IMG/VR virus record: IMGVR_UViG_3300011437_000003
Coordinates: 1-53,274 of that record
DNA: 53,274 nucleotides
Reading direction: 5' to 3' (one strand)
Source of the DNA: a virus
Lineage: Duplodnaviria > Caudoviricetes
The stretch's first letter is position 1, and each line of letters begins with the position of its first letter. Below are positions 7,043-26,967 of the stretch, piece by piece. The translations under genes and the position numbers were made by a program. The notes below the pieces were generated by a model, which was given only the letters and a program-made list of their open reading frames with translations, searched no databases and was not told the DNA's origin.

Positions 7043-7960
7043 CTAGCCCGTGCTGCCATCGACGCCAGCCCAGACGCCGAACGTGGAGGCCGCCATGTGC
7101 CGCTGCCAGCACGTGAAGATCGCGTTCTTGGTCCAGGGATCGTCGAAGGCATCGAAGATCGGTTCGTCCCGGGTCATGAAGTTGAGGTCGTGGACGCCCT
7201 TCGGGGCCAACGCCCACCACGCAGTCTGCGAGGTGAGGTAGTGGCCGATCATCCACGAGAACTCCTCTTCGAGGAGGGAATTCCGCTCGTTGTTCGCGGT
7301 GAACGGCTTGCCGGACGACCCGAGGATCTCCCGCGCGACGAACCGGTTGAACTCGTGCAACAGGAACATCACCGGGGCCATCATCCGCGGCAGGCCGCGG
7401 GCGTCGACCATGCTGGCGAACCGCTGCACGGAGTTCTGAATCCCGGTGATCGAGAACCCGATGTCGGGACTCGGCCGGTTCGCCTGCGAGATGCTCGCGT
7501 CGGCGAACGAGACGTGAGCCGTCGAGCAGAGGGATTCCCCGACCACGAACCCCGGGAACGCCGTGTTGAAGGCGTTGTTGAAGACGCTCCACGCGGAGAC
7601 TTCCTTGCGGTTCCGGGATGCGCGGGCGAGACCGCCGCTCAGATCCCGCATCACCCCGTAGTTGTCGTCCCGCCACATGGCGTAGGTGATCTCGATGGCC
7701 ATGCCGTAGGCCGTCGAGGTGTACGACTTGGTCGGGCCCTGCGTGGACCCGTCGAGCGGGAAGCGGTCGCCTTCGGGCATCGCGCCCATGGTCCCGAGGC
7801 CGCTGTAGATCTGGTCGGTGACGGTTGCGTACGGCAGGGTCCCGGTGTTCAGGATCTCCGGGTACTCCAACGCGCGTTCCTTCCCGACGTCGATGTAGAC
7901 GCGGTAGAGGTCGGGGCGCAGGAGCCCCGAAAAGGCGTTCGTGACTTGCGGTGCGGGCAT
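7043..7960 (-). CDS. Major capsid protein (HK97 fold, Mu gpT-like)
   Basis: 305 aa; EG...YGMAIEIT...DD.YG...LARAS, GESLCSTAH, and C-terminal W.GVDGSTG motifs. Confidence 0.85.
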   Translation of the reverse strand: MPAPQVTNAFSGLLRPDLYRVYIDVGKERALEYPEILNTGTLPYATVTDQIYSGLGTMGAMPEGDRFPLDGSTQGPTKSYTSTAYGMAIEITYAMWRDDNYGVMRDLSGGLARASRNRKEVSAWSVFNNAFNTAFPGFVVGESLCSTAHVSFADASISQANRPSPDIGFSITGIQNSVQRFASMVDARGLPRMMAPVMFLLHEFNRFVAREILGSSGKPFTANNERNSLLEEEFSWMIGHYLTSQTAWWALAPKGVHDLNFMTRDEPIFDAFDDPWTKNAIFTCWQRHMAASTFGVWAGVDGSTG

Positions 7961-10011: not shown

Positions 10012-10213
10012 ATGCAGTCTCCTCTTGTTCGGAGCGTGTCAATTCTGCGATCCATTTGTCAAGAAGTCTCTTTTGTGCTAAGGCCGCCTGGGCAGCCTCC
10101 CACGTCGTCGCGGCGTCCTGATCGGACTCCGCACGCTGGCGGTGTTTCACGAGGTGCTCGCGGTAAGACGCCAGCGCGTCGGGGTGTTGGCGCAGGAGTT
10201 CGAGCCATCTCAT
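9962..10213 (-). CDS. Small helical hypothetical protein
   Basis: 83 aa, ATGA-coupled to the portal stop. Confidence 0.55.
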   Translation of the reverse strand: MRWLELLRQHPDALASYREHLVKHRQRAESDQDAATTWEAAQAALAQKRLLDKWIAELTRSEQEETAYARYVGNAGNHSRSRA

Positions 10214-12066
10214 CCGACGGTTGTCCCGCTCGGCTGCAACGCGGCCTGCTGTCCGCCGAGCGCTCCCGTGAGCAACTGTGTCAGCATCGCCATGCCCTGC
10301 TGGGCCGGGTCTACCGCCGCATCCATCTCGGCGTGGAGGTCGACGATGAAGTTGGCGGGGTCCCGGATCTGATCGAAGGTCGTCAGGGTGCGGAGCACGA
10401 GCTGCCCCGCGGCGTCCGCGATCTTACGCGCCGCCTCCTGCACCGGGCCGGGGACCTGCGGGTTCGCCGCAATCGCCACGAGTTCGAGGGTCCGCTGGTA
10501 GTACTGTCCGAGGACGTTCATCAACATGATGCTGTTCTGGCGCTCGACATCGCGGTTGAGCGTCGTCGAGGACGCGGTCAGCTCCACGCTGTAGGCGTCG
10601 TCGAACTCGCGGTCCCGGAGCGTGGCGATCAACAGACGTCCCTTTTCCGCGCCGTGGACCTTGATGAGGTGGGCTTCCAGCTTGTGATCCCCGGCGAGAA
10701 GCCGCTCTTGCTCCCGGAACAAGCACTGCCGCACCGCCGCCGCCACGCACAGTCGGACCCCGTCAAACGCCGGGGTGAACCGCTTGTTCGCCTGGTTGAG
10801 CAGGGAGATCGCGGTGATCCCCGGCGTCCGGCTGGAGGCCAGCGAGCCGCCACGCGGCGGGGCCGTCATCTGGTTCAGGCCGACCCGGCGCTCCGCCAGC
10901 ATCATCGGGAACTGCTGCATCATAATCATCGACGGGGAGATGTCGGACATCTTCAGCTCTTTGAGCGCTTCCGGGTTGGTCGCGAACTGGACCTTCCCGG
11001 GCCATACCTTCATCGTTTCGGGGATCGACGAGTCGCTCGCGAGCCACACCCGCGCATTCGCCAGAAGCGCGTTCGTCAGCGCGTAGCTGTGGACGTCGCT
11101 GGTCTCCTGCTGGAGCGACGAGACCATGTCCATCACGCCGAGGCCGAAGAAGAGGTGGCCCCGGATCTGATATCGCATCGCTTCGAGCGGGCGCCGATCG
11201 TAGGTGTTGTACTCCACCTTCAGGACGCTTCGCGACGTGCGGTCCCACGTGACCTTCAGGTCCTCGGCGACCCCGTCTTCGTCGATGTCGTAGTGACAGA
11301 ACACGTGCCAGACCTCAAACAGCTCCGAGTAGACGTTGTTCCGCCACGTACGGCCGAGCATCTCGCGACGGTTGCGGACCCAGCCGATCGCTCCGCACGC
11401 CTGGACGTGCTCGGTGTTCCAGTCTTCCTCGGCGGCCTGGTCGTCCAACTCGGTCACCGTCATCCAGCGACGGTACGCGCACCACGAGGCAGTCTGGAGG
11501 TCGCCGTAGGCTCCGCCCGGGACGAAGAAGTCCTCCGGCGGGATCGGCGTGATGCGGGGCCCGCGCTGCGTCACCGTCATCGTGCGGGTCTTCCGTACCG
11601 ACTCGACGAACGGGACGTGGAGAATGCCGGTCCCGAGTTTCACGTCGTCGAGGATGGCCTCTTCCGCCGCGTTTCGAACGTTCCACTCGTTCGCCACGCC
11701 CCAGTTGACGTGCTCCTGAAGCGCCACCGCGGCGTCTCGCCGGGCTTCGTCTGAGCCGACTGGCCGCACCGTGAGGATCGGCTGGATATTGAAGATGAGG
11801 TCGAGGATTTGGGCGTAAATCTCGTCGGTGGCGATGGCCCCGACCGGGACTTCGATGTTCGGCGCGTTCTCGATCGGGACGTTTCGCACCGCGACGCGAG
11901 GCTCGGCGACGTACTGGCGTAGGGATTCTCGCCACAGGACCTCTTGCGGGTGCCGGGCGGCGCAGGCGTCCTCCGTTTCGCGGCTGAGCCACGCGACGAA
12001 GTCCCGCATCCCCTCGTCGGTCCACTTGAGGGTCGGGACGGTGAGGTGGGGCTCGATCAACCGCAT
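10210..12066 (-). CDS. Portal protein
   Basis: 618 aa; D.VKLGTGI, IPPEDFFVP, FFGLGV, Q-rich C-terminus typical of P22-like podovirus portals. Confidence 0.85.
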   Translation of the reverse strand: MRLIEPHLTVPTLKWTDEGMRDFVAWLSRETEDACAARHPQEVLWRESLRQYVAEPRVAVRNVPIENAPNIEVPVGAIATDEIYAQILDLIFNIQPILTVRPVGSDEARRDAAVALQEHVNWGVANEWNVRNAAEEAILDDVKLGTGILHVPFVESVRKTRTMTVTQRGPRITPIPPEDFFVPGGAYGDLQTASWCAYRRWMTVTELDDQAAEEDWNTEHVQACGAIGWVRNRREMLGRTWRNNVYSELFEVWHVFCHYDIDEDGVAEDLKVTWDRTSRSVLKVEYNTYDRRPLEAMRYQIRGHLFFGLGVMDMVSSLQQETSDVHSYALTNALLANARVWLASDSSIPETMKVWPGKVQFATNPEALKELKMSDISPSMIMMQQFPMMLAERRVGLNQMTAPPRGGSLASSRTPGITAISLLNQANKRFTPAFDGVRLCVAAAVRQCLFREQERLLAGDHKLEAHLIKVHGAEKGRLLIATLRDREFDDAYSVELTASSTTLNRDVERQNSIMLMNVLGQYYQRTLELVAIAANPQVPGPVQEAARKIADAAGQLVLRTLTTFDQIRDPANFIVDLHAEMDAAVDPAQQGMAMLTQLLTGALGGQQAALQPSGTTVG

Positions 12067-12266
12067 CGCGGCTCCTCAACGAGAACGTTGTTGGGGAAAT
12101 CACGGGCCATGAGTTCTGCGCTGCCCAGTACTCCGTTCGTGGGATGGGCGGCATAAAGACCGTCACACATGCGGCAAGGAGCGGCCGGCGGAGGCTCCTC
12201 CAACAAGGCGTTGTGCTCGTTGCACCAGGGATGTGTCCGCAAACCACCGAGTCCGTATTGGTTCAT
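12057..12266 (-). CDS. Small Cys/His protein
   Basis: C-x2-H...C-x2-C motif, 69 aa. Confidence 0.5.
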   Translation of the reverse strand: MNQYGLGGLRTHPWCNEHNALLEEPPPAAPCRMCDGLYAAHPTNGVLGSAELMARDFPNNVLVEEPRCG

Positions 12267-12625
12267 TCGGCGCCGCCCAGCACGCCGACTACCTGCGTCG
12301 GGGCCCCGGAGTTGTTGTTCAGCTTGAGGTTCGAGGCGACCCCCGCGTCGATATCCGCGTTGAACACGAAGACCCAGCCTCCGGCAGCGAGCGGAATCCC
12401 GGCGTCGGTCTGGCCGTCAAGCCGCAACACGACCGCTTCGTCGAGCGGGCGGAACAGGAGCACCTGAATCGTCGGAAGCCCGCCGATCGCCACGTACGTC
12501 CCGGTGCTGGACCGCGTAACGTCGAAAGTCTCCGTCTCGTTCACCGTGAGCCGGGTGACGAGCGGTGTGTTCGGGACATCCACGCCGTCCAGCTTCAGGA
12601 GAAGCGTCGCCTCTAGCGTCGGCAT
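12263..12625 (-). CDS. Virion structural protein (beta-sandwich-like)
   Basis: 120 aa, beta-strand rich. Confidence 0.6.
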   Translation of the reverse strand: MPTLEATLLLKLDGVDVPNTPLVTRLTVNETETFDVTRSSTGTYVAIGGLPTIQVLLFRPLDEAVVLRLDGQTDAGIPLAAGGWVFVFNADIDAGVASNLKLNNNSGAPTQVVGVLGGAE

Positions 12626-12778: not shown

Positions 12779-13111
12779 TTACTGGGGACAGGGGTCGAGT
12801 TTGTCCCGCCGACAGGCCAGGCGCTTCTCGTGCGCCGAGCGGTCGAGGAACGGCTTCTTGAAGGCGGCGTCGGTCTGGCTCCGCTCCATCTGCTCGATAC
12901 CGTAGCGGACCAGCCCGCGGATCACGTCGTCGCGCGTCTGCGCGGGCTCCGGCGCCCTCTTCGTCGACTGAATCCGGGCGTTGTACCGCACCAGGTGCTC
13001 GGCGATGGTCGCCTCCTGGTCGTCCGTGATGGTGCCGCTGTACGGCCCGGCCGCGACCGGGGCCGCCGCCCCGACCAGCAGCAGCATGAGCAGCGTCGCG
13101 TGAACGGTCAT
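12779..13111 (-). CDS. Small exported protein (signal peptide, C-terminal Cys pair)
   Basis: RBS AGGAGG; MTVHATLLMLLLVGAAAPVAA|G; C-x7-C at the C-terminus. Confidence 0.65.
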   Translation of the reverse strand: MTVHATLLMLLLVGAAAPVAAGPYSGTITDDQEATIAEHLVRYNARIQSTKRAPEPAQTRDDVIRGLVRYGIEQMERSQTDAAFKKPFLDRSAHEKRLACRRDKLDPCPQ

Positions 13112-13122
13112 GGCCAGCCCTC

Positions 13123-16100
13123 CTAGCACCGCACGAGGGTGCCATTGTTGTTGAAGCAAGCGCTTGTGGAACCGCCGCCGGCCAAAGTCGAGTCGGTGAT
13201 CCCGCCAGCGTCGCCGATCACGAGCACCGGCGTCCCGGCGGTGTTGAGGATCTGGAAGTTGGAGCCGTTTGCCCGGAGGTGCTTGGTCCCATTGGCCGCG
13301 CCGCCGTGAATCAGGACGATGCCCGCCCCCTGCGTACCCCCGCTGACACTGGTCACGATGATCTGGTCATCGATGTCGGTCGGCACGGAGCTATCGATCA
13401 CCCCATCGGCCGTGATCTTGAACTTCGCGACGAACCCGGCATCGTTCGGGAAGAAGTCGCTCACCACGAAAGCGTTCGTGAAGCCCCGGCCGAACGGGAC
13501 GCCTGCGACGGCACCGAGCGCCGTATTCGCGAGGAAGTTTGTCGCCCCGGTCACAGAGGTGCCGACGGTCTCCAAGTGGTACGCGGCAATGCCCACCGCG
13601 GTGGTGCCGCAGTTCGCCGCACCGCAGAACACCTCCGCCTGCACCGATGTCACGCCGTTCGGCGTCGTCCCGGCCCGCGCCGAGCCCCACGTGTTCAGGC
13701 CGTATCCACCAAAGCCCGAGCCCGACCGCGCATCGAAGTACGCTACGACCGCGGCGCGCTCAGCCGATGACGTCGAGCCCTCCATCTGGTAAACCCCGCC
13801 GAGTGCGATCCCGGTCCCAGTGAACCCCGCTTGCTCGCTCACGCGCACCATGCCGGTGACGGACGTCGCGTTGCCGAGCTGGGCGGAGCTGGACGTCGAG
13901 CTGTCCGTGTTGTCGATCAAGAACCCGGCGTAGCTGTTGGACAAGATGTACTCGGTGAACGAGAATGGGGTGCTCGCGGTACGCGCGCCACTCGTCGCCG
14001 CGCTGATGAAGAGAGGTCGGGAGTCCGTATACGAGGGACTCGTGTTCGGGACGTCCAGCGTCAGTCGCTTGAAGGTGTCGTCCCACGTCGCGTTCGGGGA
14101 CCCGCTCTGCGTCGCGGCGCCGGTCCAGAAGGTCATCTGGCCGGCGGAGCCGGAGCCGGTGATCCCCGACGCGCACCCAGACCATCCGAGCTGCTGGAAA
14201 CCGTCCGTCTTCAGGCACTGGTTTGCGGTGCCGTCCGCGATCGGCAACTGCCACATGATGTTCGTGGCGATGGCATCGGGGGCCTTGAAGCCGACGTAGC
14301 TGACGCCGTTCGCGACGAGTTCCCGAAACCGGATTTCTCCGGTGTTGCCGGCTGAAGCACCGAACGGCAGCAGAGTAAGTGCCGCTTGCTGGGCCCACGA
14401 GTGGGCCCCGGTCCACGCACACGTACCGCTCAGGACGCAGGCGGCAGACGTCTGCGTGGTCGCGTCGGGGAACTTGAACCCGCCGCTGGTCGATTCGATG
14501 AGCCCGATTACTTGCATCGAACCGGCGGCGGCGAATTCGATGAAGTTTGACCACGAGGCGGAACTCGCACGACGTTGGAGCCGCAGCCCGCCCGTCGCGG
14601 AGTTGCCGATGAAGCGGAAGCCGAAGCCGGAAGCGGACGCCGACGTAAGGAGCTGGATCTCGCCGAGCGCGCCGCCGCCGTAGTCCCCGATGAGCAAGCC
14701 GCCAAACTGCGCCACCGGCATCGTCGTGAAGTTGATACCGAGTCTCGCGGTCCCCGCGACCTCAAATTCTGTCTGCGGAAGGGTCGTACCGATCCCGACC
14801 CGCCCAATATCGGTGATCGTCATGCGCGTCGCGGTGGCCGTCGATCCGGCCGGCGTCGTCACGAAGTTGAGGTACGCGGGCCGGGAGGCGCCGGTCCACG
14901 TACCGCCCGCTACCATGTTGATCGCCACCTGGCCGCTCGTGTACACGGTGCCGTCGTAACCCTGGCCGAACAACGAGCAGATCACGTTGTTGGCGACAAG
15001 GGTTGTCGGGGCGGCTGGGGTCCCGTTCGCCCGCCGGCAGAAATACTCCCCTTCGTTGCCGTAGGCGTCGATCTGGACCGCGGTAGCAACGCCGCTGGCG
15101 CTGGCCCACCGCTGCCGCACCGCAGTCAGCGAAGCGACGGGCGGGAGCGTCGAGACGTTCGTCGTAACGTAGACGTGCTTGTTGGTGTTGTCGACGCCGA
15201 AGGCGGTGTCGGTGAGCATCGCGTTGGTCGCCGCGCTGAAGATGAGCTGGCCCGGGGTCCCGAGGATGTTGTTCACGACGCGGGTCCCGCTGTTGAAGGA
15301 GAGCGCGCCGGACGCCGCCGACATGTCGGCTCCGAAGCCGCCCCGAGCCGCACCAAGCGTGCCCGTCCAGCCCAGCGTGAAGGTGTGGACGTCGACCGCC
15401 GACCCGATCGCGAGCGTCACGTTGGTGTCGTCGACTTTGGCGAAGGTTTGCGTAGCGCCGGTCTGCCCACCCAGCGACGTGAGACCCGTGCCGCCACTTG
15501 AGCAGTTCGCCCAGCCCCACACGTTGCTTCCGTTCGTCGAGAGACAGGTTCCAGCCGCGCCATCGCCAGTCGGCAGCGTCACCGTCGTGCTGGCAGCGGT
15601 CACGCCGGGCTGAATCGTGAACGTGTTCGCGTTCGCCGCGTTGAAGAGAACGAGCTGCCCGGTCGTCGTCGAGGCGACCCCGATCCCGACCGCCGGGGTA
15701 ACGGTGAGGCGCTGGGTCGCCGTGGTTGTTCCGATCGCGACGTTCTGCGCCGACGTGATACGTACCGCCTCGGTGAGGGTCGTTGAGCCGCTCGGCGTCG
15801 TGGCGAGCGTGATGAAGGTGGGCCACGACGTGGCGGTGAAGGCGCCGGACGCGAAGAAGCCGAGCGAGGCCGCAGACCCGCTGTAGCCGGGAGTCCCTTC
15901 CTCGTATCCCTGTCCGATGATCGCGCAGATCGGGTCGTTCGTGGTGAGGGCGGTCGGGGCAGCCGGCGTGGTGTTCGCCCGTCGACAAACGAGGGCACCT
16001 TGTGCAGCCCAAGCATCGGCTGCGATGTTGCTGGGGCTTCCACTGGCACTGGCGACCCGAAACCTGGAGTCCGCAGGCGGGAGCGGAAGCCCCGACGCAT

Positions 16101-17937
16101 TGTTCGTTACATTAAGCTGGATATTGACGTTGTCCCAGGTCAGCTTACTGTTAGTCCCAATGGCGTTTGTCGCGGCCGAGAACAGAAGGTCTCCTGGCGT
16201 CCCCAAGACGTTTGAGAACACCGGAGTCCCCGCATTGAACGAGACGGCGCCGGTCGCTGCGCTGGTGTCCTGTCCCCAACCGCCGCGGTCCCGGGATAGC
16301 GTTGAAGCCCACGTCAGGACGTGTGCCGTGCCTGCCGACGCAATCTGAAGGTTCGTGTCGTTCGTGAAGGTCTGCGTCGCTCCGGTCAGTCCGTTCAATG
16401 AGAGGATACCAGTCCCGGCCGTACTGCACGCCGCGCCGGTTGGCGAGATCACTCCGGCGCTGTTGATCTGAAGGCATTCTGTACCGGCGGTTGGGACGGG
16501 AAAGGTCAGGTTGTAGAAGGCGCCGGGACGTTGAATCTGGACTTCCCATGGCATCGGGTACCGAGCCGGCGTTCCTGAAATAGGATTGGTCACGCCGACA
16601 TAGCGGTTGGATCCGACGATGACCTCGGCAGCACTCCCGACAATCTCGATACCGATAGCACTTCCGGTCGTGATCCGCAGGAGTTCATTGTCAACGATGC
16701 GGTAGCGTGTTCCGCCGCCCATCTTGATCCCGACATCGACGTCGCTGATGAAGTTCTGCGCGATGATGACGTCGGTCACGTACGTCGCGTCATTCGTGCC
16801 GAAGGCGATGCCCCAGTTCGTCGCAACGCCACCACTACCAAGCAAACGGCTGATCTGGTTCCCGGTGATCTGCAAGTAGAGGATCGCCGCAGCACCGCTC
16901 GACCGTGTTACCTGAATCCCGATGGCATCGAATGACTCGATTGAATTGTTCGCGATGATGAAGTCTTGCGTCGAGTCGAGCGGGTCGATGTTGATGGCCC
17001 CGGCGAAGCCGAGGAACTTGTTGTTCGTCAGCCGAATACCGCCACCCGAGCGCCAGATGAATCCATTAGCTGTGATGGGGCCGAAGAACGTGTTCCCAGT
17101 GATGACGGTGTCACCCTGGTCACCGTTTTGCGTATTCTCCCAAGTGATACACGTCGTCACGCAGTTCCAGAAGGTGTTGTTCTCGATGATGGCGAACAGG
17201 CTACTCACGGAGCGAGTTGAGCCGGCAAGCCCGAGGAATTGCATGTTCGAGATGCGGGTTTTCTGCGCGCCACTCAAGCCACCGACAACCCCGGGCGACG
17301 TCAGCCGAATGCCGTCACCGCTTACCGCAACAGAGCTGACGATCGCGAAGTTTGCGAACAAAACCGGGTCGGTCGAGTTGACCGCAAAGCCGTGCTGCGT
17401 GGCGTTCGTCAAGCGTACGCACGATCCGCTCGTGCCGGCGGTACCGACCTGCCCGGACCCACCACCGAACCATGTCACCGACTTGGTTACGTTGATCTGC
17501 ACGCTGATGTCGTAGCAGCCGACGCCTGGCGGGATGTAGATAGGTTGCCCAGCTATTGCTGCGTCGTGCGCATCCTGAAACGCCGCGTTGTTCACAGCAA
17601 CCGACGCGCCGATCGCCGCACCATAAGTCGTGATATCGAGCCAGAGCGACGCGGAGCCCGTGCATGCGCTGTAAGCGCCGCCGTTGAACGAGCAGAGCAG
17701 CGTATGCGTCACGCTGTCAGCCATCACACGCGCGACGCCGGCTGACGACAACGGATGCGTCGAGGTTTCGGTGAGCAAGAGCTGTTCGAGGGTCCCGGAC
17801 GGGCCCATAAGCGCCTTCAGCGCTTGCTGCTCACGGGTCGTAAGGATGACTTGCTGCGCCACCGCAAGCGGGGCCACCGCGCACAGTACGAAGCCGAAGA
17901 CGGTACCGAGGACGAAACCGAGGATGAACCGCTTCAA
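13123..17937 (-). CDS. Large tail spike/fibre (1604 aa) with beta-helix domain, repeated fibre modules and N-terminal signal peptide
   Basis: MKRFILGFVLGTVFGFVLCAVAPLAVA|QQ; WLDITTYGA...NNAAFQDA...IYIPPG beta-helix start; VGIGTT and LP.ADG...CL.TDG fibre motifs. Confidence 0.85.
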   Translation of the reverse strand: MKRFILGFVLGTVFGFVLCAVAPLAVAQQVILTTREQQALKALMGPSGTLEQLLLTETSTHPLSSAGVARVMADSVTHTLLCSFNGGAYSACTGSASLWLDITTYGAAIGASVAVNNAAFQDAHDAAIAGQPIYIPPGVGCYDISVQINVTKSVTWFGGGSGQVGTAGTSGSCVRLTNATQHGFAVNSTDPVLFANFAIVSSVAVSGDGIRLTSPGVVGGLSGAQKTRISNMQFLGLAGSTRSVSSLFAIIENNTFWNCVTTCITWENTQNGDQGDTVITGNTFFGPITANGFIWRSGGGIRLTNNKFLGFAGAINIDPLDSTQDFIIANNSIESFDAIGIQVTRSSGAAAILYLQITGNQISRLLGSGGVATNWGIAFGTNDATYVTDVIIAQNFISDVDVGIKMGGGTRYRIVDNELLRITTGSAIGIEIVGSAAEVIVGSNRYVGVTNPISGTPARYPMPWEVQIQRPGAFYNLTFPVPTAGTECLQINSAGVISPTGAACSTAGTGILSLNGLTGATQTFTNDTNLQIASAGTAHVLTWASTLSRDRGGWGQDTSAATGAVSFNAGTPVFSNVLGTPGDLLFSAATNAIGTNSKLTWDNVNIQLNVTNNASGLPLPPADSRFRVASASGSPSNIAADAWAAQGALVCRRANTTPAAPTALTTNDPICAIIGQGYEEGTPGYSGSAASLGFFASGAFTATSWPTFITLATTPSGSTTLTEAVRITSAQNVAIGTTTATQRLTVTPAVGIGVASTTTGQLVLFNAANANTFTIQPGVTAASTTVTLPTGDGAAGTCLSTNGSNVWGWANCSSGGTGLTSLGGQTGATQTFAKVDDTNVTLAIGSAVDVHTFTLGWTGTLGAARGGFGADMSAASGALSFNSGTRVVNNILGTPGQLIFSAATNAMLTDTAFGVDNTNKHVYVTTNVSTLPPVASLTAVRQRWASASGVATAVQIDAYGNEGEYFCRRANGTPAAPTTLVANNVICSLFGQGYDGTVYTSGQVAINMVAGGTWTGASRPAYLNFVTTPAGSTATATRMTITDIGRVGIGTTLPQTEFEVAGTARLGINFTTMPVAQFGGLLIGDYGGGALGEIQLLTSASASGFGFRFIGNSATGGLRLQRRASSASWSNFIEFAAAGSMQVIGLIESTSGGFKFPDATTQTSAACVLSGTCAWTGAHSWAQQAALTLLPFGASAGNTGEIRFRELVANGVSYVGFKAPDAIATNIMWQLPIADGTANQCLKTDGFQQLGWSGCASGITGSGSAGQMTFWTGAATQSGSPNATWDDTFKRLTLDVPNTSPSYTDSRPLFISAATSGARTASTPFSFTEYILSNSYAGFLIDNTDSSTSSSAQLGNATSVTGMVRVSEQAGFTGTGIALGGVYQMEGSTSSAERAAVVAYFDARSGSGFGGYGLNTWGSARAGTTPNGVTSVQAEVFCGAANCGTTAVGIAAYHLETVGTSVTGATNFLANTALGAVAGVPFGRGFTNAFVVSDFFPNDAGFVAKFKITADGVIDSSVPTDIDDQIIVTSVSGGTQGAGIVLIHGGAANGTKHLRANGSNFQILNTAGTPVLVIGDAGGITDSTLAGGGSTSACFNNNGTLVRC
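14783..16410 (-). repeat. Internal duplication of an ~230-aa module in the 1604-aa fibre
   Basis: Two copies (about 15725-16410 and 14783-15487) share TGATQTF, LGTPG.L.FSAATNA, CRRAN.TPAAPT.L, GQGY, TTP.GST, IGTT. Confidence 0.85.
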
Positions 17938-18302: not shown

Positions 18303-18616
18303 GTTGATCCTCCGATCATGCGACCGTGCGTCGCGACCGCTGCGGTCAGCCCTCGGCCCGCGTTCTGGAGCACCGTCGCGGTCTTGTCGAGCGCGGCCTG
18401 CGTACGGATGGCCTCTTTCGCGACTTCGTGGGTCGCGACGTAGGTGAAGCCGAACAGGCATCCGGCAACGGGCTCCACGTTCCCGGAAGCGTCACGGAGG
18501 TGGTCTTCGATCCACTGAGCGCAGCCGCGCGTGGTCCCGGGACACTTCTTGTGGAACAGGGCGCACGGGCGGCCCGTGGTGTCGACGATATTGCGGACCC
18601 ACGCCGGGTAGTCCAT
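18299..18616 (-). CDS. Tail-fibre-associated Cys-rich protein (putative assembly chaperone)
   Basis: C..F.K.C......C..W...GC followed by a coiled coil; directly follows the tail fibre. Confidence 0.5.
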   Translation of the reverse strand: MDYPAWVRNIVDTTGRPCALFHKKCPGTTRGCAQWIEDHLRDASGNVEPVAGCLFGFTYVATHEVAKEAIRTQAALDKTATVLQNAGRGLTAAVATHGRMIGGST

Positions 18617-19752
18617 TACGTCTTCTCAGCGACGATGATGTCGCGGTAGAGCGGGCGCCATGTTCCGTCGCTCGCGATCGGCGGCGAGGTCGCTCCGCTG
18701 AGGTCGGGGTCGGGTGTCCCGGTCAGCAAGACGCCGACCGGCGCCTCTTGGTACCCTACCGCGTTGTTGTTCACGACGGTGAAGACGCTCGCGCTGGCGC
18801 CGGGAGTCCACGCTGAGGTCTTCGCGATGAAGCCTTGAGTGGCGCCGTCGCTCCCAGCGACCGGGGCATCGTGCTGGTGCGCGCCGAGAGTATGCGTATG
18901 CGAGGACATCGTGATCCCGGTCAGCGTCCACGAACCACCGTCAGCTCGGGCCCCCACAACGAGGCGGAGCGCCCGGTCATCGAGCGTTCCAGTGACATCG
19001 CGGGTCCACCCGGCTGGCGCCGTGTCGTTGTCGAAGAAGAGGCGGGTCCCCGGCGGGAACGCTGACCCGCCGATGTCGTCGAGCATCGCGAACGTGCCGT
19101 CTTTGTCGGGGTAGGTCTGCGTGCGCGTCGTCGTCACGCCGCTTGCGAGGATCAGCGGGAAGTTCGCCGGATCGAAGCGGAACCGTACCGCGAGCACGGG
19201 TTGGTCTTCGTCTCCGGTGTTCTCGGAGATTTCGAGGCTTCCCGCGTTCTCGCGGATGAACATGTCGACGCCGAGCGTTTCGGTTCCGAGCAGACGCACG
19301 TACGGATTGTTCGTGCGGTTCACGAGCGGGGAGAGCTGCCTCTCGTCGACCACCGCGGTGACGGAGCCGGCCGCCGTGGTCACCCTCATCAGGCGTACGC
19401 AGTCTGTCGGAAGCGGAAGGTCGACTACCGAGGTGAGGTAGTGGGTCCCGGCGACGCGGGTGAACCCGCCGAGGTTTCCGGCGGTGTCGGGACTAGCGAT
19501 CACCCACGTGGTGGAGTCGTCCGCGTAGGTGATGCTGCCGCCTTCGGTCGCGTAGAAGCCGCCGGGGAAGGCGCCCATGCCGACTGGCGTTGCGGTCAAC
19601 CCGGCGACCGTCCCGTGAAGCCCGCCCCCCGCCACGAAGCTCTGGAACATCAGGACGAAACGGTCGGCGTCCTCGCTCCGCAAGAAGGTCTGGAGCGCTT
19701 CGAGGAACGCCGAGCCGGCTTCGGGGATCGGGTTGACGGTTTGCGTGGTCAT
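18616..19752 (-). CDS. Tail fibre protein (no signal peptide)
   Basis: FPPGTRLFF...APAGWT collar motif, HTH/HQH metal-binding tip motifs, WRPLYRDIIVAEK C-terminus. Confidence 0.8.
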   Translation of the reverse strand: MTTQTVNPIPEAGSAFLEALQTFLRSEDADRFVLMFQSFVAGGGLHGTVAGLTATPVGMGAFPGGFYATEGGSITYADDSTTWVIASPDTAGNLGGFTRVAGTHYLTSVVDLPLPTDCVRLMRVTTAAGSVTAVVDERQLSPLVNRTNNPYVRLLGTETLGVDMFIRENAGSLEISENTGDEDQPVLAVRFRFDPANFPLILASGVTTTRTQTYPDKDGTFAMLDDIGGSAFPPGTRLFFDNDTAPAGWTRDVTGTLDDRALRLVVGARADGGSWTLTGITMSSHTHTLGAHQHDAPVAGSDGATQGFIAKTSAWTPGASASVFTVVNNNAVGYQEAPVGVLLTGTPDPDLSGATSPPIASDGTWRPLYRDIIVAEKT

Positions 19753-20547: not shown

Positions 20548-20970
20548 CTACCGCATCTTCTGGTTGAGGTCGCTGCGGAGCCTGCTGATCGCGGCGTCGA
20601 CCGCGCCTTGCGCCGTGTCGCGCGAGGGCCCCAGCGCCATGCCCTTGACGAACTCCAGCTGGTTCCCCGCCTCGCGGTAGCGGATGCGGAACACGCCGTC
20701 GAAGGCGTCCCAGGCGTTGCACGTCGGCTGGTCGATGGTGCGCGTCGCTGCGGTGCAGCCCTTGAAATACTTCGCGGCGGTTTCACCGTGGTCCACCCGG
20801 ATCTCGTGCATCTGCTTGTCGGCGGCGAGAACGGCCTTGCCAGCGACGAGCACGGCCTGATCCGCCGGGGTGGCGGCCTGCTTCTCGCCGGTGAGCGAGG
20901 CGCAGCCGGTGAGCGCACCGACCGCGACGGCCAGGAACAGGAACAACACGAGCTTACGGGAGTTTCGCAT
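20548..20970 (-). CDS. Lipoprotein
   Basis: MRNSRKLVLFLFLAVAVGALTG|C lipobox; internal Cys pair. Confidence 0.75.
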   Translation of the reverse strand: MRNSRKLVLFLFLAVAVGALTGCASLTGEKQAATPADQAVLVAGKAVLAADKQMHEIRVDHGETAAKYFKGCTAATRTIDQPTCNAWDAFDGVFRIRYREAGNQLEFVKGMALGPSRDTAQGAVDAAISRLRSDLNQKMR

Positions 20971-21295
20971 CAGAACCTCCAGTCGGAATGGACACGCCTA
21001 CGCTCAACGCTGCGGGCGTCGGGTTGTTCTGCACCACGCCGGTTGGCGTGACGGTCGTGACTTGGACCTCTTCGCCCTTGAGGCTTGCGGTGTCGGCCGG
21101 GGTCGCCTTCAGGGCTTGTTGTACTGTTCGGGCGAACGCAGCCACCATGCCCGCAACGATGGCGATGACCGTGATTCTGTTCATCGCGGCACTGTCGATC
21201 GAAATGGCGGCCATCAACGAGGCGTAGCCCGCAAGGATCGCATCGGTGAACGCGCTGATGATGAGCACGGTCCAGGCGCTTTTCCAGTTGCTCAC
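20954..21295 (-). CDS. Holin-like membrane protein
   Basis: Two hydrophobic segments, 113 aa, in a membrane-protein cluster. Confidence 0.5.
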   Translation of the reverse strand: MSNWKSAWTVLIISAFTDAILAGYASLMAAISIDSAAMNRITVIAIVAGMVAAFARTVQQALKATPADTASLKGEEVQVTTVTPTGVVQNNPTPAALSVGVSIPTGGSDAKLP

Positions 21296-21609
21296 AGAGC
21301 CGGTGCCTCTCGTGGCCGGGCCTCACCGCTCCGAACGCCTTCTTCCCGCGCGAGCAGGAGATCCTTGGCGGTGGACGCCAACAGCTCGGCCGCTGCCTGC
21401 GCTTCGACCCGCATGGCTTCGCGTCCCGCCGCGAACGCCGCGTTGGTCGAATCCGCTATCATCTTGTCCATACGAGAGTTGATGTGGATTTTCAGGTCGA
21501 CGACAGCCTCCGAACCCTTCCTGAGTTGGCGGCTAATGAGCCCAAGGAGCGCCGCGACAACCACGCCGAGCGCGGAGACAACCGGGCCCCACGAGATTGA
21601 CTCGATCAT
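21292..21609 (-). CDS. Single-TM membrane protein (holin/antiholin-like)
   Basis: ATG 21609; WGPVVSALGVVVAALLGLI followed by HINSRMD and a helical tail. Confidence 0.55.
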   Translation of the reverse strand: MIESISWGPVVSALGVVVAALLGLISRQLRKGSEAVVDLKIHINSRMDKMIADSTNAAFAAGREAMRVEAQAAAELLASTAKDLLLAREEGVRSGEARPREAPAL

Positions 21610-21758
21610 TCGACCCACAACCAGCACTGCGAGGTCGTGGTGATGAGCGCTTCGAGCGCCTGTTCCGCGCGCGTGGAGTAGAAGTGCGACGCCTGCGCGG
21701 GCAGGGCACCCGCCAGTAGGACAAGGGGAAGGACTACTGTCATCCACAGGCGCCGCAC
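21606..21758 (-). CDS. Small exported peptide (50 aa)
   Basis: MRRLWMTVVLPLVLLAGALPAQA|S; stop overlaps the next ATG (ATGA). Confidence 0.5.
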   Translation of the reverse strand: MRRLWMTVVLPLVLLAGALPAQASHFYSTRAEQALEALITTTSQCWLWVE

Positions 21759-21760
21759 GC

Positions 21761-22147
21761 TCAACCCTCCCGGATCAGAAACGTCAGCGTAACGAGGGTG
21801 TCCGACGTGACGTTCAGCTCAGTGACGAGGAACTTGACCCACGGCGCGAGGAAGTTCGGCAGCGAGACCGCGAAGACGCCCTCCGGCGTCGGGAAGTCCG
21901 TCACGGACGCGGCCACGAGGTCCGCGTAGTCCGAGAACGCGCCGAAGGTCACGCCGTCTTCGGAGATCGCACATTCCACCTTGACGGACGGGACCGCCGA
22001 GAGCACCGAGGTGACCCCCATGATGAGGGATTCGGCACGGGTTGCGAACCGAAGCGGGATGGCCGGAGAGGTGAGGGTCCCGGCCTGCGTGATTGCCGCA
22101 GCGGTCCAGATGTGAAACGGAACGAGCCGTTCCATCACAGGGGGCAT
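21761..22147 (-). CDS. Virion structural protein (beta-sandwich)
   Basis: VKVECAISEDGVTF motif; beta-rich 128 aa. Confidence 0.6.
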   Translation of the reverse strand: MPPVMERLVPFHIWTAAAITQAGTLTSPAIPLRFATRAESLIMGVTSVLSAVPSVKVECAISEDGVTFGAFSDYADLVAASVTDFPTPEGVFAVSLPNFLAPWVKFLVTELNVTSDTLVTLTFLIREG

Positions 22148-22761: not shown

Positions 22762-23373
22762 TTAGGCGCTCCGGGCGACCTCGTCGATGTACCAAGACGG
22801 GGCGTTGCTTTCGCGGAGGAACTCCAAGCGGGCGTCGCGCTCCATGGCCCCGCTCTTCGCCACGGTCGTCTTCCGCAGCATGGAGATCGCTTGCGCGAGC
22901 GCGTCTGCGAGGTCGAGGGTCGCGCCGGCTGGGAACGCCTCCAACTCCAGCCACAAGTCACGATGCGTCGGGTGCATGACGAGGCGGCCCGAGTTGATGA
23001 CGGGCTGGAGGATCGTCTCGGTGCGGGAGACCTTGTCGACGTTGGTGGGCATTTTCATCGGGAGAAGTGGAAGTCGCAAGAGGCGCTGTTTCGCTTCGCG
23101 CTGGAGCGCGTCGGCGTACAGCGATTGCATCGCGCTGGCGTCGATCCCGACGACGCGGAGTCCCGGGAAATCCTGCACGAGCTTGAAAATCCGGTCGGTG
23201 TGCGTAGTGGTCGAAACGCGGTCAGCCCAGGCGTGCAGCACGAAGATCCGGCTGATGGCGTCTTGGCCCACGACGACGTCGGCGCTCCGGGAGGAGGTGC
23301 GCTTGTGCTGGACGGCCTTCCCGGAAGCCGGGTCGATGAACGCGACGATATCGGTGAGGTCGCGGAGGGTCAC
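22762..23373 (-). CDS. terL: Terminase large subunit, stand-alone RNase H-like nuclease domain
   Basis: GTG start coupled to upstream TGA; IDPASG, VGID, DKVSR, ELEAFPAGATLDLADALAQA motifs of TerL C-terminal nucleases. Confidence 0.8.
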   Translation of the reverse strand: MTLRDLTDIVAFIDPASGKAVQHKRTSSRSADVVVGQDAISRIFVLHAWADRVSTTTHTDRIFKLVQDFPGLRVVGIDASAMQSLYADALQREAKQRLLRLPLLPMKMPTNVDKVSRTETILQPVINSGRLVMHPTHRDLWLELEAFPAGATLDLADALAQAISMLRKTTVAKSGAMERDARLEFLRESNAPSWYIDEVARSA

Positions 23374-23678
23374 GACGCCAGGCGCGGCCCGATCGCGCCG
23401 TGCCGGAGTTTCCGGTGGATTCCGAATTCGTCCTGGAACATCGGCGTGTTCCGGTCCCCGAGGCTGAGCAACCCGGAGACACGCTCGAATTCCGCTTGCG
23501 GGACAAGGCTCCCGACGATGTAGTAGAGGTTGCCACAGGCGGAGCAGCGCGAGGCGCCAGGCTCCTGCGCGCAGCGGCCCCGGCACCGCGGGCACGTCTC
23601 GCACGGTGCAGAGAGGCGGTTCGACGAGGACGGGACCGGGAGCTGGGTCGACGAGGGAAGAAGGGCAGCCTTGGGCAT
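23370..23678 (-). CDS. Zn-ribbon protein inside the terminase locus
   Basis: CPRC...CSAC; TGATG and GTGA coupling. Confidence 0.6.
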   Translation of the reverse strand: MPKAALLPSSTQLPVPSSSNRLSAPCETCPRCRGRCAQEPGASRCSACGNLYYIVGSLVPQAEFERVSGLLSLGDRNTPMFQDEFGIHRKLRHGAIGPRLAS

Positions 23679-23788
23679 CAGGCGGCCTTCGGCCCGCACC
23701 GCGGGCAGACCCACCGGCCGTCGACCGCTTTCATCTCGTTGCGGCACCACCCGTGGGGGCAAAGCGGCGGACGGAGCGTCGTTTTCAT
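23678..23788 (-). CDS. Zn-ribbon microprotein (36 aa)
   Basis: MKTTLRPPLCPHGWCRNEMKAVDGRWVCPRCGPKAA; ATGA overlap with the ATPase stop. Confidence 0.55.
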   Translation of the reverse strand: MKTTLRPPLCPHGWCRNEMKAVDGRWVCPRCGPKAA

Positions 23789-25035
23789 CCCTGTCGGAGC
23801 CTCATGCGGCCCCCGGACTCGCCGGGACCGCTCCATTCGGTGCGTAGCCAGCCTTCGCGACCGGTTCCGGGGTGTTCGCCGGGCGAAACAGCGAAATTTG
23901 GGCGATTTTCCTCGCGCGCGGCCGGTTTTGCCCGCTCCGTGAGCACGAAATCGCGCGGATCGTCCCCGACGACGATATTTTCGCCTTCGAGAACGTACTG
24001 ACGGACCTCAGCCATGTCGAAAGCGGTGATCCCGGCCCCAATCGCGGTGTTGAGGTACAGAAACGGGAACAACACGCCGAATTCCGAGCGGAGCTGGTCG
24101 AATTTCGCGAGAGTGAACCCGCCCTCCGGGTAAATCGGCGTCCCGTGCTCGATCCCGGAGCGCAGCATGACGTCGACCGACTTATCGGAGTCCATGATGA
24201 AGCGGGCCCAGTCGTAAGCGGCCCACCGGGTCGTCGTCATGAACTCCAGGCATTCTGGTTTGTTGATGAGGGCCCGCGAGGTCACGTGCCACTGGATGGC
24301 GTCCTGCATCACGGCGGCGCTGTTTGCGGCGTCGCGGGTCGCGAGGTCGTCTTTGATGAGGATGCGCGGGTGGGCCCCGGTGATCGCCCCGCCGACGCCG
24401 ATCCCGCGGATTGTCGGGTCGGGGAGTTCCTCGCCGCGGTGATCGTGGCGGACGATCATCTCGGTTTCGTTCCACTTCTTGGAGGCGCGCGGGTTGTCCC
24501 AACAGACGTGGGGCCAGAGCGCACGGAAGATCGTGTTGCCTTCGAACACCGACTGCACGACCCGGAGCGCGTCGGAGGCCCGGTCGGCGGACTCCCCGGC
24601 GAGGACAATCGTGGTATCCCGACCGTCGAGACCCGCGATGTAGATGTTCGCGTCCTTCGGTTGGATGACCATGTGCGGGGTGAGGGCGTGGCCGATCAGC
24701 GTGGTCTTACAGTGCTCGCGGGGCATGAGCAGGAGCTTGCGGCGGAACTTCGTGAAGTCGAGGAGCCAGTTGCAAACTGGCGCGTGGAGCGTCCGGGTCA
24801 GGTAGGTCCGGCCCAGGACGCCCACCGCGAACGTGAACAGGTTGCGTTCGGCCTCCGCCTTGAACTGACCGACGAAGGCGCCGGTTCCGCCGGACGGGTC
24901 CGAGCCTGCTTGGCGTACCGCCCCGGTCTTACGGTCAACGATGATTTCGTCGTGGAGGGTTTCGGCGGTGGGCGCGTCGTCGGGCGGCGCGTCGGGAACG
25001 GCGAAGTCGGCGATCAGAGAGTCGAGGGTGTTCAC
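23785..25035 (-). CDS. terL: Terminase large subunit, ATPase domain only
   Basis: Walker A MPREHCKTT, GVGGAITGAH, Walker B ILIKDD, coupling motif TTRW, F..LYLN end of ATPase domain; no nuclease domain before the stop. Confidence 0.85.
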   Translation of the reverse strand: MNTLDSLIADFAVPDAPPDDAPTAETLHDEIIVDRKTGAVRQAGSDPSGGTGAFVGQFKAEAERNLFTFAVGVLGRTYLTRTLHAPVCNWLLDFTKFRRKLLLMPREHCKTTLIGHALTPHMVIQPKDANIYIAGLDGRDTTIVLAGESADRASDALRVVQSVFEGNTIFRALWPHVCWDNPRASKKWNETEMIVRHDHRGEELPDPTIRGIGVGGAITGAHPRILIKDDLATRDAANSAAVMQDAIQWHVTSRALINKPECLEFMTTTRWAAYDWARFIMDSDKSVDVMLRSGIEHGTPIYPEGGFTLAKFDQLRSEFGVLFPFLYLNTAIGAGITAFDMAEVRQYVLEGENIVVGDDPRDFVLTERAKPAAREENRPNFAVSPGEHPGTGREGWLRTEWSGPGESGGRMRLRQG

Positions 25036-26959: not shown

Positions 26960-26967
26960 ACGAAGTC

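What the first reader, a model, noticed from the sequence alone, without database searches (positions are those of the whole stretch)
13123..17937. Giant tail spike/fibre with a Sec signal peptide and hairpin-spaced Cys pairs: fibres maturing outside the cytoplasm?
Seen: the 1604-aa protein starts MKRFILGFVLGTVFGFVLCAVAPLAVA|QQ (basic n-region, h-region, A-x-A). Its start is supported by the TTGA overlap with the upstream stop. Cysteines occur in close pairs closing short beta-hairpins: CSFNGGAYSAC, CLQINSAGVISPTGAAC, CLSTNGSNVWGWANC, CLKTDGFQQLGWSGC, CRRAN..IC twice, and terminal CFNNNGTLVRC. Known: tailed-phage virions assemble in the reducing cytoplasm, so fibres normally lack signal peptides and structural disulfides. 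The conventional fibre here (18616-19752) indeed has no signal peptide and only one Cys. Inference: this fibre is exported, folds by disulfide formation, and either joins the virion during or after lysis or is displayed on the host as an adhesin/depolymerase, like the secreted phage-fibre-like adhesins of Bdellovibrio. This is the best candidate for an undescribed system in the window.
Basis: partly seen in the sequence, partly recalled or inferred. Interest (0 to 1): 0.88.

Follow-up and report, generated by a model that had tools for sequence, protein, structure and literature searches.

The report
Phage tail fibres with export signals
A complete metagenomic phage genome encodes giant tail-fibre-like proteins that carry a conserved, apparently cleavable secretion signal and strictly paired cysteines, which suggests that these fibres mature outside the cytoplasm, where tailed phages are not thought to build their parts.

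Summary
The gene lies on the minus strand (13123-17937, TTG start, 1604 aa). Its product starts with a canonical Sec-type leader (MKR, about 18 hydrophobic residues, P at -5, A-V-A|QQ). All 22 cysteines after the leader form 11 consecutive close pairs.

Comparative data strengthen it:
- All 10 other proteins that carry the same N-terminal module have a leader too. The leaders are divergent in sequence and end A/V-x-A just before a conserved QQV(I/V)LT.
- A second beta-helix spike (338-3022), a small protein coupled downstream (12779-13111) and a truncated remnant (21606-21764) also have leaders.
- The 'conventional' 378-aa fibre has no leader here. Of 26 homologues, 8 carry one, fused exactly at the conserved N-terminus. 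A Cys pair occurs in 6 of those 8 and in 0 of the 18 without a leader.
- The only solved relatives by sequence are the secreted Bdellovibrio MAT fibres.

Most likely this is a mosaic, polysaccharide-active tail-fibre family that is exported by Sec, cleaved and disulfide-stapled. Whether it then joins virions at lysis or acts as a free enzyme or adhesin is unresolved. One leaderless relative (P0004) keeps the Cys pairs, so the pairs alone do not prove export. No cleavage, export or virion data exist. Six literature searches found no report of Sec-exported tail fibres.

The parts
13123..17937 (-). Gene for the 1604-aa pre-fibre (P0001), TTG start
   Evidence: coding-type GC3 from the first codons
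17857..17937 (-). Residues 1-27: Sec-type signal peptide MKR / hydrophobic core / P at -5 / AVA|QQ
   Evidence: Read directly from the sequence. All 10 other N-module proteins have a leader. Pairwise identity is 28% in the leader and 58% in the mature part. AF2 predicts helix 2-20 and a pLDDT dip at 27-29.
17656..17856 (-). Residues 28-94: conserved mature N-terminal module (QQVILTTREQQALKALMG... CSFNGGAYSAC)
   Evidence: phmmer against 1.84 billion representatives gave 30 hits, 10 of them with the module at the N-terminus; alignment A1
16498..17580 (-). Residues ~120-480: right-handed beta-helix, polysaccharide-active type
   Evidence: Pfam Beta_helix 26.5 bits against a cut-off of 25.9. AF2 model pTM 0.70. 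Foldseek: AlgE4, DFA-IIIase, Sf6 and HK620 tailspikes, RbmB lyase, E 2e-5 to 1e-3, TM 0.3-0.59.
14158..16497 (-). Residues ~481-1260: mosaic fibre shaft with Cys-stapled hairpins
   Evidence: Segments are shared piecewise with P0003, P0005, P0008, P0010, P0011, P0013 and P0014; Cys pairs
14725..15129 (-). Residues 937-1071: shaft module homologous to Bdellovibrio MAT fibres
   Evidence: phmmer against PDB sequences: 8OML E 4e-9, 8ON4, 8OND, 8OJN, 8OL4; identified as Bd1334, Bd2133, Bd3182 and Bd2439 in PMC10769870
13126..14157 (-). Residues ~1261-1604: C-terminal tip ending CFNNNGTLVRC
   Evidence: Partly shared with P0004 (1475-1604), P0013 and P0011
17934..18302 (-). Upstream 122-aa gene, stop overlapping the fibre start; no leader
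   Evidence: 66% identical homologue in the same place in L002; no homologue in L005 or G001
12779..13111 (-). Downstream 110-aa protein with leader MTVHATLLMLLLVGAAAPVAA|GP and a C-terminal Cys pair
   Evidence: Its Shine-Dalgarno sequence TAGGAGGG includes the fibre's stop codon; no homologue in L002
338..3022 (-). Second beta-helix spike (P0006) with leader ...VVSVLTLALVMLVMVAGASA|QP; real start probably GTG at 2877 or about 2934
   Evidence: Pfam Pect-lyase and Beta_helix, both weak; homologue P0038 has MRRLAWSLLLALALVGTASA|QD
21606..21764 (-). 52-aa ORF: leader plus SHFYSTRAEQALEAL, a truncated copy of a second N-module subfamily
   Evidence: full-length relatives are L002 3406-4554 (382 aa) and P0028
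18616..19752 (-). 378-aa leaderless fibre; its N-domain family includes members with a leader
20548..21609 (-). Lysis-like cassette: TM plus coiled-coil protein 21292-21609, multi-TM protein 20954-21295, lipoprotein 20548-20970 (lipobox LTGC)
   Evidence: Read from the sequence; no Pfam or PHROG hits; the functions are inferred

Best explanation
P0001 is a mosaic tail-fibre/tailspike-type protein of a complete 53-kb phage that looks like a podovirus. It is made as a pre-protein with a cleavable Sec (SPase I) signal peptide.

Proposed path; every step is inferred and none was measured:
1. The unfolded chain is exported across the inner membrane.
2. The leader is cut at AVA|QQ, leaving an N-terminal Gln.
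3. The 11 Cys pairs are oxidised to short-range disulfides that staple beta-hairpins.
4. The chain trimerises into a long fibre. The fibre carries a polysaccharide-active beta-helix near its base and a swappable tip.

The conserved mature N-terminal module is the docking end. My favoured next step is that virions pick the fibres up when holin lesions and lysis mix cytoplasm and periplasm. I give this about 55:45 over the free-enzyme reading, given that export happens.

The same logic applies to the second spike (338-3022) and to members of the 378-aa fibre family that carry a leader in related phages.
For: Leader.
- It has a basic n-region, a hydrophobic core of about 18 residues, P at -5, and A at -3 and -1.
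- All 10 other proteins with the N-module at their N-terminus have a leader of 19-35 aa. The -3/-1 residues are A/A in 8 of 11 and V/A in 2 of 11.
- Leader pairwise identity is 28% against 58% for the mature part.
- The start position is conserved in the syntenic phage L002.

Wider pattern.
- The second spike P0006 and its only homologue P0038 both have leaders.
- The protein coupled downstream has one.
- L005 has four consecutive fibre- or adhesin-like ORFs with leaders next to the portal gene.

Natural experiment in the 378-aa N-domain family (26 sequences).
- 8 carry a 20-27 aa leader fused exactly before the conserved motif with which the other 18 begin.
- A Cys pair at aligned positions is present in 6 of those 8 and in 0 of the 18 (Fisher p = 1.2e-4).

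Cysteines.
- The post-leader Cys count is even and fully paired in 9 of the 10 other N-module proteins and in P0001 itself (P0028 has 2 Cys, 69 apart). Permutation p ranges from below 1e-5 to 9e-3.
- Across 102 aligned module instances there were 42 Cys/Cys, 58 none/none and 2 single.

Fibre nature.
- Pfam Beta_helix hit and beta-helix fold matches.
- Shaft module homologous to trimeric MAT fibres.
- Mosaic sharing of segments between homologues.
- Position inside the structural operon of a phage record with direct terminal repeats and CheckV completeness 100.

For virion docking. The N-domain of the 378-aa family is conserved with and without a leader, and some members carry the Pfam phage tail collar domain PF07484. 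P0006 lies where the complete relative G001 has a short leaderless fibre-like ORF.
Against: - There is no experimental evidence of export, cleavage, disulfides or virion presence. SignalP and coordinates of the models were not available.
- P0004 shares the beta-helix and tip at 34-45% identity and has 11 Cys pairs, but has no leader.
- Among 32 related proteins, Cys density is only modestly higher with a leader: 12.6 against 7.7 per 1000 aa, one-sided p = 0.02.
- In the tree of the 378-aa family, the members with a leader sit in one weakly supported half. Well-supported branches force only one change, so the Fisher test overstates independence. Two members with a leader (P0048, P0049) lack the Cys pair.
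- The genes lie in a variable region beside lysis-like genes. A complete relative (G001) lacks all three fibre families, and one copy in the window is truncated. This fits accessory, possibly non-virion, proteins.
- A lipoprotein and a TM/coiled-coil pair suggest a diderm host. There, Sec alone would leave a very long fibre in the periplasm, apart from cytoplasmic virions until lysis.
Confidence: 0.6

Rival explanations
1. The protein is exported but is not a virion part. The fibres act as free periplasmic or released enzymes or adhesins. They might cut nascent capsule, EPS or O-antigen so that progeny are not trapped and superinfection is blocked, or they might help egress, by analogy with signal-peptide endolysins.
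For: - The genes sit in a variable slot between terminase and portal, next to a lysis-like cassette.
- The complete relative G001 lacks them.
- A truncated remnant is tolerated.
- The beta-helix fold matches periplasmic or secreted polysaccharide enzymes such as AlgG, AlgE4 and RbmB.
- The closest solved relatives are non-virion secreted fibres.
- Sec-exported phage endolysins are a known precedent (passages of PMC8878798).
Against: - The architecture of conserved N-terminus and variable tip is what virion-anchored receptor-binding proteins show.
- The 378-aa N-domain family mixes forms with and without a leader and carries phage tail collar domains.
- P0006 occupies a tail-fibre position.
- No outer-membrane export route was found for a released enzyme.
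Confidence: 0.28
2. The leader is not cleaved, or is not used for export. It would be an N-terminal membrane anchor or hydrophobic helix that tethers the fibre at the inner face of the membrane or inside the tail. Assembly would be cytoplasmic as usual, and disulfides would form only after release.
For: - The hydrophobic stretch in P0001 is long, about 18-20 residues.
- The leaderless P0004 shows that the Cys-paired modules can exist without export.
- Cytoplasmic assembly is the rule for tailed phages (established knowledge).
Against: - A/V-x-A precedes the conserved mature N-terminus in 10 of 11 family members, while the hydrophobic core is not conserved in sequence or length.
- Leaderless homologues of the 378-aa family begin exactly at the predicted cleavage point.
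- Homologue leaders are Leu-rich rather than Gly/Ala-rich as in SAR domains (the SAR composition is recalled, not tested).
- Leader presence and the Cys pair go together.
Confidence: 0.09
3. Annotation artefact: the real start is downstream (GTG-21, GTG-26 or ATG-44) and the hydrophobic stretch is untranslated.
For: In-frame GTG codons lie at residues 21 and 26 and an ATG at residue 44. The Shine-Dalgarno match before the TTG is weak (AGGCG).
Against: - The stop/start overlap is conserved and L002 has a strong GGAGGA.
- Codon-position GC is coding-like over the leader.
- Independent leaders are present in all 10 other N-module proteins.
Confidence: 0.03

Closest known systems
Bdellovibrio bacteriovorus MAT (mosaic adhesive trimer) fibres (Caulton et al. 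2024, PMC10769870; passages read)
   Same: Both have a signal peptide followed at once by a conserved N-terminal domain, then a long trimeric beta-helical shaft and swappable tips. Disulfides are seen in some MAT tips. One shaft module of P0001 is homologous by sequence to Bd1334, Bd2133, Bd3182 and Bd2439 (E down to 4e-9).
   Different: MATs are chromosomal genes of a predatory bacterium and are displayed on its surface. P0001 is encoded in the structural operon of a complete phage genome. The N-module here is about 67 aa, against about 130 aa in MATs, and homology between the two N-domains was not tested. No S74 domain was found in P0001. Supplementary tables of the paper could not be read.
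Beta-helix tailspikes and depolymerases of tailed phages (P22, Sf6, HK620 type)
   Same: Right-handed beta-helix, conserved N-terminal end with mosaic distal parts, and location among head and tail genes.
   Different: Known tailspikes have no signal peptide and fold in the cytoplasm (established knowledge). No report of a Sec leader on one was found in the searches.
Signal-peptide endolysins (e.g. Oenococcus phage fOg44 Lys44; Bacillus J5a-clade endolysins; passages of PMC8878798)
   Same: Phage-encoded envelope-active proteins exported by Sec before lysis.
   Different: Those are small peptidoglycan hydrolases of monoderm hosts. They are not 1600-aa fibre proteins with tail-fibre modules.
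Filamentous-phage adsorption protein pIII (recalled, not checked here)
   Same: A virion receptor-binding protein with a Sec signal peptide and structural disulfides that is added to the particle outside the cytoplasm.
   Different: Inoviruses assemble at the membrane by extrusion. This phage has terminase, portal and an HK97-type capsid protein.

Membership tests
Sec / signal peptidase I (type I) signal peptide | Basic n-region, hydrophobic h-region, polar c-region with small residues at -3 and -1 | tested here: met
   M-K-R; FILGFVLGTVFGFVLCAV; P at -5; A-V-A|Q. The same layout is present in all 10 other N-module proteins. Home-made rule only.
Sec / signal peptidase I (type I) signal peptide | No lipobox and no twin-arginine motif | tested here: met
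   No L-x-[GA]-C at the cleavage region and no RR-x-F-L-K (read by eye)
Sec / signal peptidase I (type I) signal peptide | Score from a trained predictor (SignalP, Phobius) and experimental cleavage or export | not testable with these tools
   No such predictor was offered and there are no wet data
Phage tailspike / depolymerase (right-handed beta-helix) | Parallel beta-helix domain | tested here: met
   Pfam PF13229 at 26.5 bits, just above the cut-off of 25.9. AF2 model pTM 0.70, mean pLDDT 66, from an alignment of 2 sequences. Foldseek E 2e-5, TM up to 0.59.
Phage tailspike / depolymerase (right-handed beta-helix) | Component of the virion | not testable with these tools
   Metagenomic genome; only gene position speaks for it
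Phage tailspike / depolymerase (right-handed beta-helix) | Catalytic acidic residues and enzymatic activity | not tested
   No residue-level comparison was made
Bdellovibrio MAT fibres | Signal peptide followed directly by a family-wide conserved N-terminal domain | tested here: inconclusive
   The architecture is the same, but sequence or fold relatedness of the two N-domains was not tested. Foldseek with the N-module model found nothing.
Bdellovibrio MAT fibres | Homologous trimeric beta-helical shaft modules | tested here: met
   8OML E 4e-9, 8ON4 3e-7, 8OND 3e-5, 8OJN 2e-4
Bdellovibrio MAT fibres | Encoded by, and displayed on, a predatory bacterium | tested here: not met
   The gene lies in a complete phage record with direct terminal repeats, terminase, portal and capsid genes
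Peptidase S74 intramolecular-chaperone fibres | C-terminal S74 domain | tested here: not met
   No Pfam S74 hit at E up to 1. The tblastn hit H3 covers only the stalk, residues 1175-1270.
SAR (signal-arrest-release) anchor | Weakly hydrophobic Gly/Ala-rich N-terminal TM domain without a cleavage site | tested here: not met
   A-x-A site present; homologue leaders are Leu-rich. The definition is recalled.

The most novel reading that the evidence does not exclude
A lineage of tailed phages finishes virion assembly outside the cytoplasm. Its receptor-binding fibres and spikes are exported by Sec, lose their signal peptide, are disulfide-stapled in the periplasm with co-exported helper proteins, and dock through their new N-termini onto tail-complete particles only after holin lesions merge the compartments. 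Forms with and without a leader in the same fibre family would then be two interchangeable assembly routes.
Probability: 0.33. Interest if true: 0.9.

Novelty: new variant of a known kind. Interest (0 to 1): 0.76.

Why it matters
Tailed-phage virions are taken to assemble wholly in the reducing cytoplasm. A conserved, apparently cleavable export signal on tail-fibre families would mean one of two things. Either part of virion assembly happens after export, or phages routinely secrete fibre-like enzymes or adhesins during infection. The signal here is coupled to disulfide-type cysteine pairs and sits next to leaderless, Cys-poor homologues.

Either outcome changes several practices:
- how receptor-binding proteins are annotated, since signal peptides are usually used to exclude virion proteins;
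- how such fibres should be expressed for depolymerase or phage-engineering work (periplasm or oxidising strains);
- how the secreted MAT fibres of predatory bacteria relate to phage fibres.

The paired families, with and without a leader, give a ready-made experimental contrast.

Tried and rejected
Searches that found nothing
- PHROGs gave no hit for P0001.
- Megablast of 18 kb against isolated phages found nothing.
- tblastn found only short, distant matches: 4 records, each covering at most 13% of the query.
- The 378-aa fibre had no tblastn hit in isolated phages.

Host and context
- Scans of genome contigs with the N-module alignment and with P0038 found no relative. A scan of metagenome contigs also found none. 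No prophage copy or host was identified.
Only their lengths were seen.
- Portal and polymerase have only distant relatives: 24% identity to a virus labelled Methanomicrobiales, and 29% to a Microcystis phage. A diderm host is inferred only from a lipoprotein and a TM/coiled-coil pair.

Structure and binding
- Complex prediction with three copies of the mature N-module and the upstream 122-aa protein returned 'no answer' (score 0.00, controls not run). This counts neither for nor against binding.
- Foldseek with the N-module model (mean pLDDT 67) gave nothing below E = 1.
- The ESM Atlas search of residues 1-130 gave scores of at most 0.81, which are leads only.
- The tools return no coordinates, so Cys-Cys distances could not be measured.

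Readings considered and dropped
- Lipoprotein or Tat signal: no lipobox and no twin arginine.
- S74 chaperone fibre: no S74 domain.
- Internal tandem duplication at the DNA level: TRF found only a 41-bp array, and self-BLAST found no repeat.

Supplementary files of PMC10769870 were not requested because they are closed. They list the 21 MATs and could bear on whether the two N-domains are related.
Full report
What the window is.
The window is a complete IMG/VR virus record of 53,274 bp with direct terminal repeats and CheckV completeness 100. GC content is 66%. A long minus-strand operon carries these genes:
- a terminase large subunit split into two ORFs (23785-25170 and 22762-23604);
- a portal (10210-12066);
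- an HK97-type capsid protein (7043-7960, Pfam Phage_capsid_4).
The plus strand carries replication genes, including a UDG-PolA fusion. No tape-measure-sized gene was seen, so the phage looks like a podovirus; this is inferred. Known phages are very distant. The portal is 24% identical to its best hit and the polymerase 29%. Megablast found nothing.

The observation.
The gene lies on the minus strand at 13123-17937, has a TTG start and encodes 1604 aa. The TTG overlaps the stop of the upstream gene as TTGA. In the syntenic relative L002 the same junction reads GTGA and is preceded by GGAGGA. Codon-position GC is coding-like from the first codons.
- The leader is MKR, then FILGFVLGTVFGFVLCAV, then APLAVA|QQ.
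- After the leader there are 22 cysteines. They form 11 consecutive pairs with gaps of 4-32 residues, separated by 49-225 residues.
- None of 100,000 random placements was as tight.

Is the leader real?
I searched the mature module alone (residues 28-110) with phmmer against 1.84 billion representative proteins. There were 30 hits at E up to 0.001, including the window's own protein.
- Ten other proteins have the module at their N-terminus: P0003, P0005, P0008, P0010-P0014, P0028 and P0030.
- All ten have a basic-hydrophobic stretch of 19-35 aa before it.
- In two of them (P0003, P0012) the database start is over-called, and the leader begins at an internal start.
- The -3/-1 residues are A/A in 8 of 11 and V/A in 2 of 11. 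P0028 is ambiguous (AWS|SH).
- Mean pairwise identity is 28% in the leader against 58% in the mature module.
A targeting peptide under selection for its physical character, placed in front of a conserved mature N-terminus, looks like this. AF2 on the 11-row alignment gives a helix at 2-20, a confidence dip at 27-29, then a helix at 34-44 and three strands. Mean pLDDT is 67, so this is weak support only.

The pattern is wider than this gene.
In the window:
- The second beta-helix spike P0006 (338-3022) has ...VVSVLTLALVMLVMVAGASA|QP. Its only homologue, P0038, starts MRRLAWSLLLALALVGTASA|QD.
- The gene just downstream of P0001 (ATG at 13111) has a Shine-Dalgarno sequence, TAGGAGGG, that contains the fibre's stop codon. 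It encodes a 110-aa protein with leader MTVHATLLMLLLVGAAAPVAA|GP and a C-terminal Cys pair.
- A 52-aa ORF (21606-21764) is a leader plus a truncated copy of a second N-module subfamily. Full-length copies of that subfamily are L002 3406-4554 and P0028.
In related contigs:
- The portal-related contig L005 (42% portal identity) has four consecutive ORFs with leaders: 308, 561, 768 and 608 aa.
- The complete relative G001 (portal 47%) has none of the three fibre families.

A natural experiment.
The 378-aa 'conventional' fibre (18616-19752) has no leader here or in L002. Two L005 proteins share its N-domain at 42-45% identity. The alignment begins exactly at their predicted cleavage sites (...TIQA|ETHQTVP and ...SAWA|TDQTHSTLP, against M-TTQTVNPIP).
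- A search limited to proteins of 207-662 aa gave 23 family members. With the three from the loci, that makes 26.
- 8 have a 20-27-aa leader. The other 18 start within 0-6 residues of the conserved motif.
- A Cys pair at two aligned positions is present in 6 of the 8 and in 0 of the 18 (Fisher p = 1.2e-4).
- Cys density is 7.6 against 2.9 per 1000 aa.
- Some members carry the Pfam phage tail collar domain.
Caveat: on an ML tree the forms with a leader lie in one weakly supported half. The tree needs three changes, but well-supported branches force only one. The events are therefore few and the p-value is optimistic.

Cysteines behave as pairs.
- The post-leader Cys count is even and fully paired in P0001 and in 9 of the 10 other N-module proteins. 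P0028 has 2 Cys, 69 residues apart.
- I aligned each of the 11 P0001 pairs, with flanks, to all related proteins. Of 102 module instances, 42 had Cys at both positions, 58 at neither and 2 at one. Some targets were hit by more than one paralogous query, so these counts are not independent.
Against the simple reading:
- P0004 has no leader but has 11 tight pairs.
- Among 32 related proteins, the 21 that my rule flags as having a leader have only modestly more Cys: 12.6 against 7.7 per 1000 aa, one-sided Mann-Whitney p = 0.02.
- P0006 has 9 post-leader Cys, so one is odd.

What kind of protein it is.
- Pfam finds only Beta_helix, at 26.5 bits against a cut-off of 25.9.
- An AF2 model of residues 101-520 came from a 2-row alignment, with pTM 0.70 and mean pLDDT 66.
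- That model matches polysaccharide-active beta-helices at E 2e-5 to 1e-3 and TM up to 0.59. The matches include AlgE4, DFA-IIIase, RbmB lyase, AlgG and the Sf6 and HK620 tailspikes.
- By sequence, the only solved relatives are the Bdellovibrio MAT fibres Bd1334, Bd2133, Bd3182 and Bd2439, matching residues 937-1071 with E down to 4e-9.
- In MATs a conserved domain follows the signal peptide directly (passage in PMC10769870).
- P0001 is a mosaic. The N-module is shared with nine proteins, the beta-helix and tip with P0004, and residues 734-1520 with P0003 and P0011.

Mechanism.
These points rest on direct comparative evidence:
- the leader is conserved;
- the mature N-terminus is conserved;
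- the cysteines are paired and co-vary;
- there is a beta-helix and a fibre shaft;
- the gene sits in the phage structural operon.
These steps are inferred:
- Sec export, SPase I cleavage at AVA|QQ and disulfide formation;
- trimerisation, by homology to MAT fibres.
The final destination is open. For virion docking:
- the N-terminal domains are conserved whether or not a leader is present;
- tail collar domains occur in the 378-aa family;
- P0006 lies where G001 has a short fibre-like ORF.
Known biology makes a route plausible. Holin lesions merge cytoplasm and periplasm before the outer membrane fails, and tailspikes and fibres can attach to particles in vitro (both recalled, not checked here). 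For a free enzyme or adhesin:
- the genes lie in a variable region beside a lysis-like cassette (TM/coiled-coil, multi-TM and lipoprotein genes at 20548-21609);
- they are absent from G001;
- one copy is a tolerated truncation;
- the solved relatives are non-virion fibres.
I put export at about 0.85 overall, summing the best explanation and the free-enzyme rival. Given export, I split the destination roughly 55:45 towards the virion.

Novelty.
Six full-text searches were run. I saw their listings and abstracts, and passages of PMC10769870 and PMC8878798. They turned up signal-peptide endolysins and the MAT fibres, but no report of Sec signal peptides on tail fibres or spikes of tailed phages. 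Subscription-only literature and supplements were not searched. I class this as a new variant of a known kind: tail fibres and spikes with an export route.

Noticed in passing
window 22762-25170 (-); L002 571-2659; G001 1545-3351: The terminase large subunit is split into two ORFs (ATPase part and nuclease part) in the window, L002 and G001. In the window and L002 a small Cys-rich ORF (52 aa; 77 aa with CxxC motifs) lies between the halves. This could be an intein or intron remnant, a programmed frameshift, or a true split.
   Followed up: partly
window 20548-21609 (-): Lysis-like cassette without a recognisable endolysin. It holds a 105-aa protein with an N-terminal TM and a coiled coil (like an i-spanin), a 113-aa multi-TM protein (like a holin) and a 140-aa lipoprotein with lipobox LTGC and three further Cys. 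No Pfam or PHROG hits.
   Followed up: partly
L005 649-7761 and 7769-8290: Four consecutive fibre- or adhesin-like ORFs with leaders (308, 561, 768 and 608 aa) are followed by a 173-aa protein that resembles a lytic transglycosylase and then the portal gene. The 561-aa protein has a long poly-proline linker.
   Followed up: partly
L002 13569-14540: Downstream of the L002 fibre there is a Cys-rich putative lipoprotein (...LLALYGC|DTSC) instead of the window's 110-aa protein with a leader. Both fibres are therefore followed by a different exported small protein.
   Followed up: no
window 42841-45339 (+): Uracil-DNA-glycosylase-like domain fused to a family A DNA polymerase with a 3'-5' exonuclease domain (Pfam UDG 7.8e-27, DNA_pol_A 1.1e-18).
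   Followed up: no
window 26884-27041 (-): Two adjacent tRNA genes, tRNA-Pro(TGG) and tRNA-Gln(TTG), lie at the switch between the two transcription directions.
   Followed up: no
proteins P0015, P0018, P0020, P0026, P0031, P0017: More distant hits form another family with leaders (leader, then QT..L.P.P..QY.D..G.PL.GG.Y.Y.AGT). There is also a 5008-aa protein with about 33 repeats of the C-x9-C module. Secreted, Cys-stapled fibre modules are therefore widespread in metagenomes beyond this phage lineage.
   Followed up: no
window 12263-12625 (-); L005 3282-3629; G001 12194-12568: A conserved 120-aa beta-rich protein lies just upstream of the portal gene in the window, L002 and G001. In L005 it lies just upstream of the 768-aa fibre with a leader. 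Its function is unknown.
   Followed up: no
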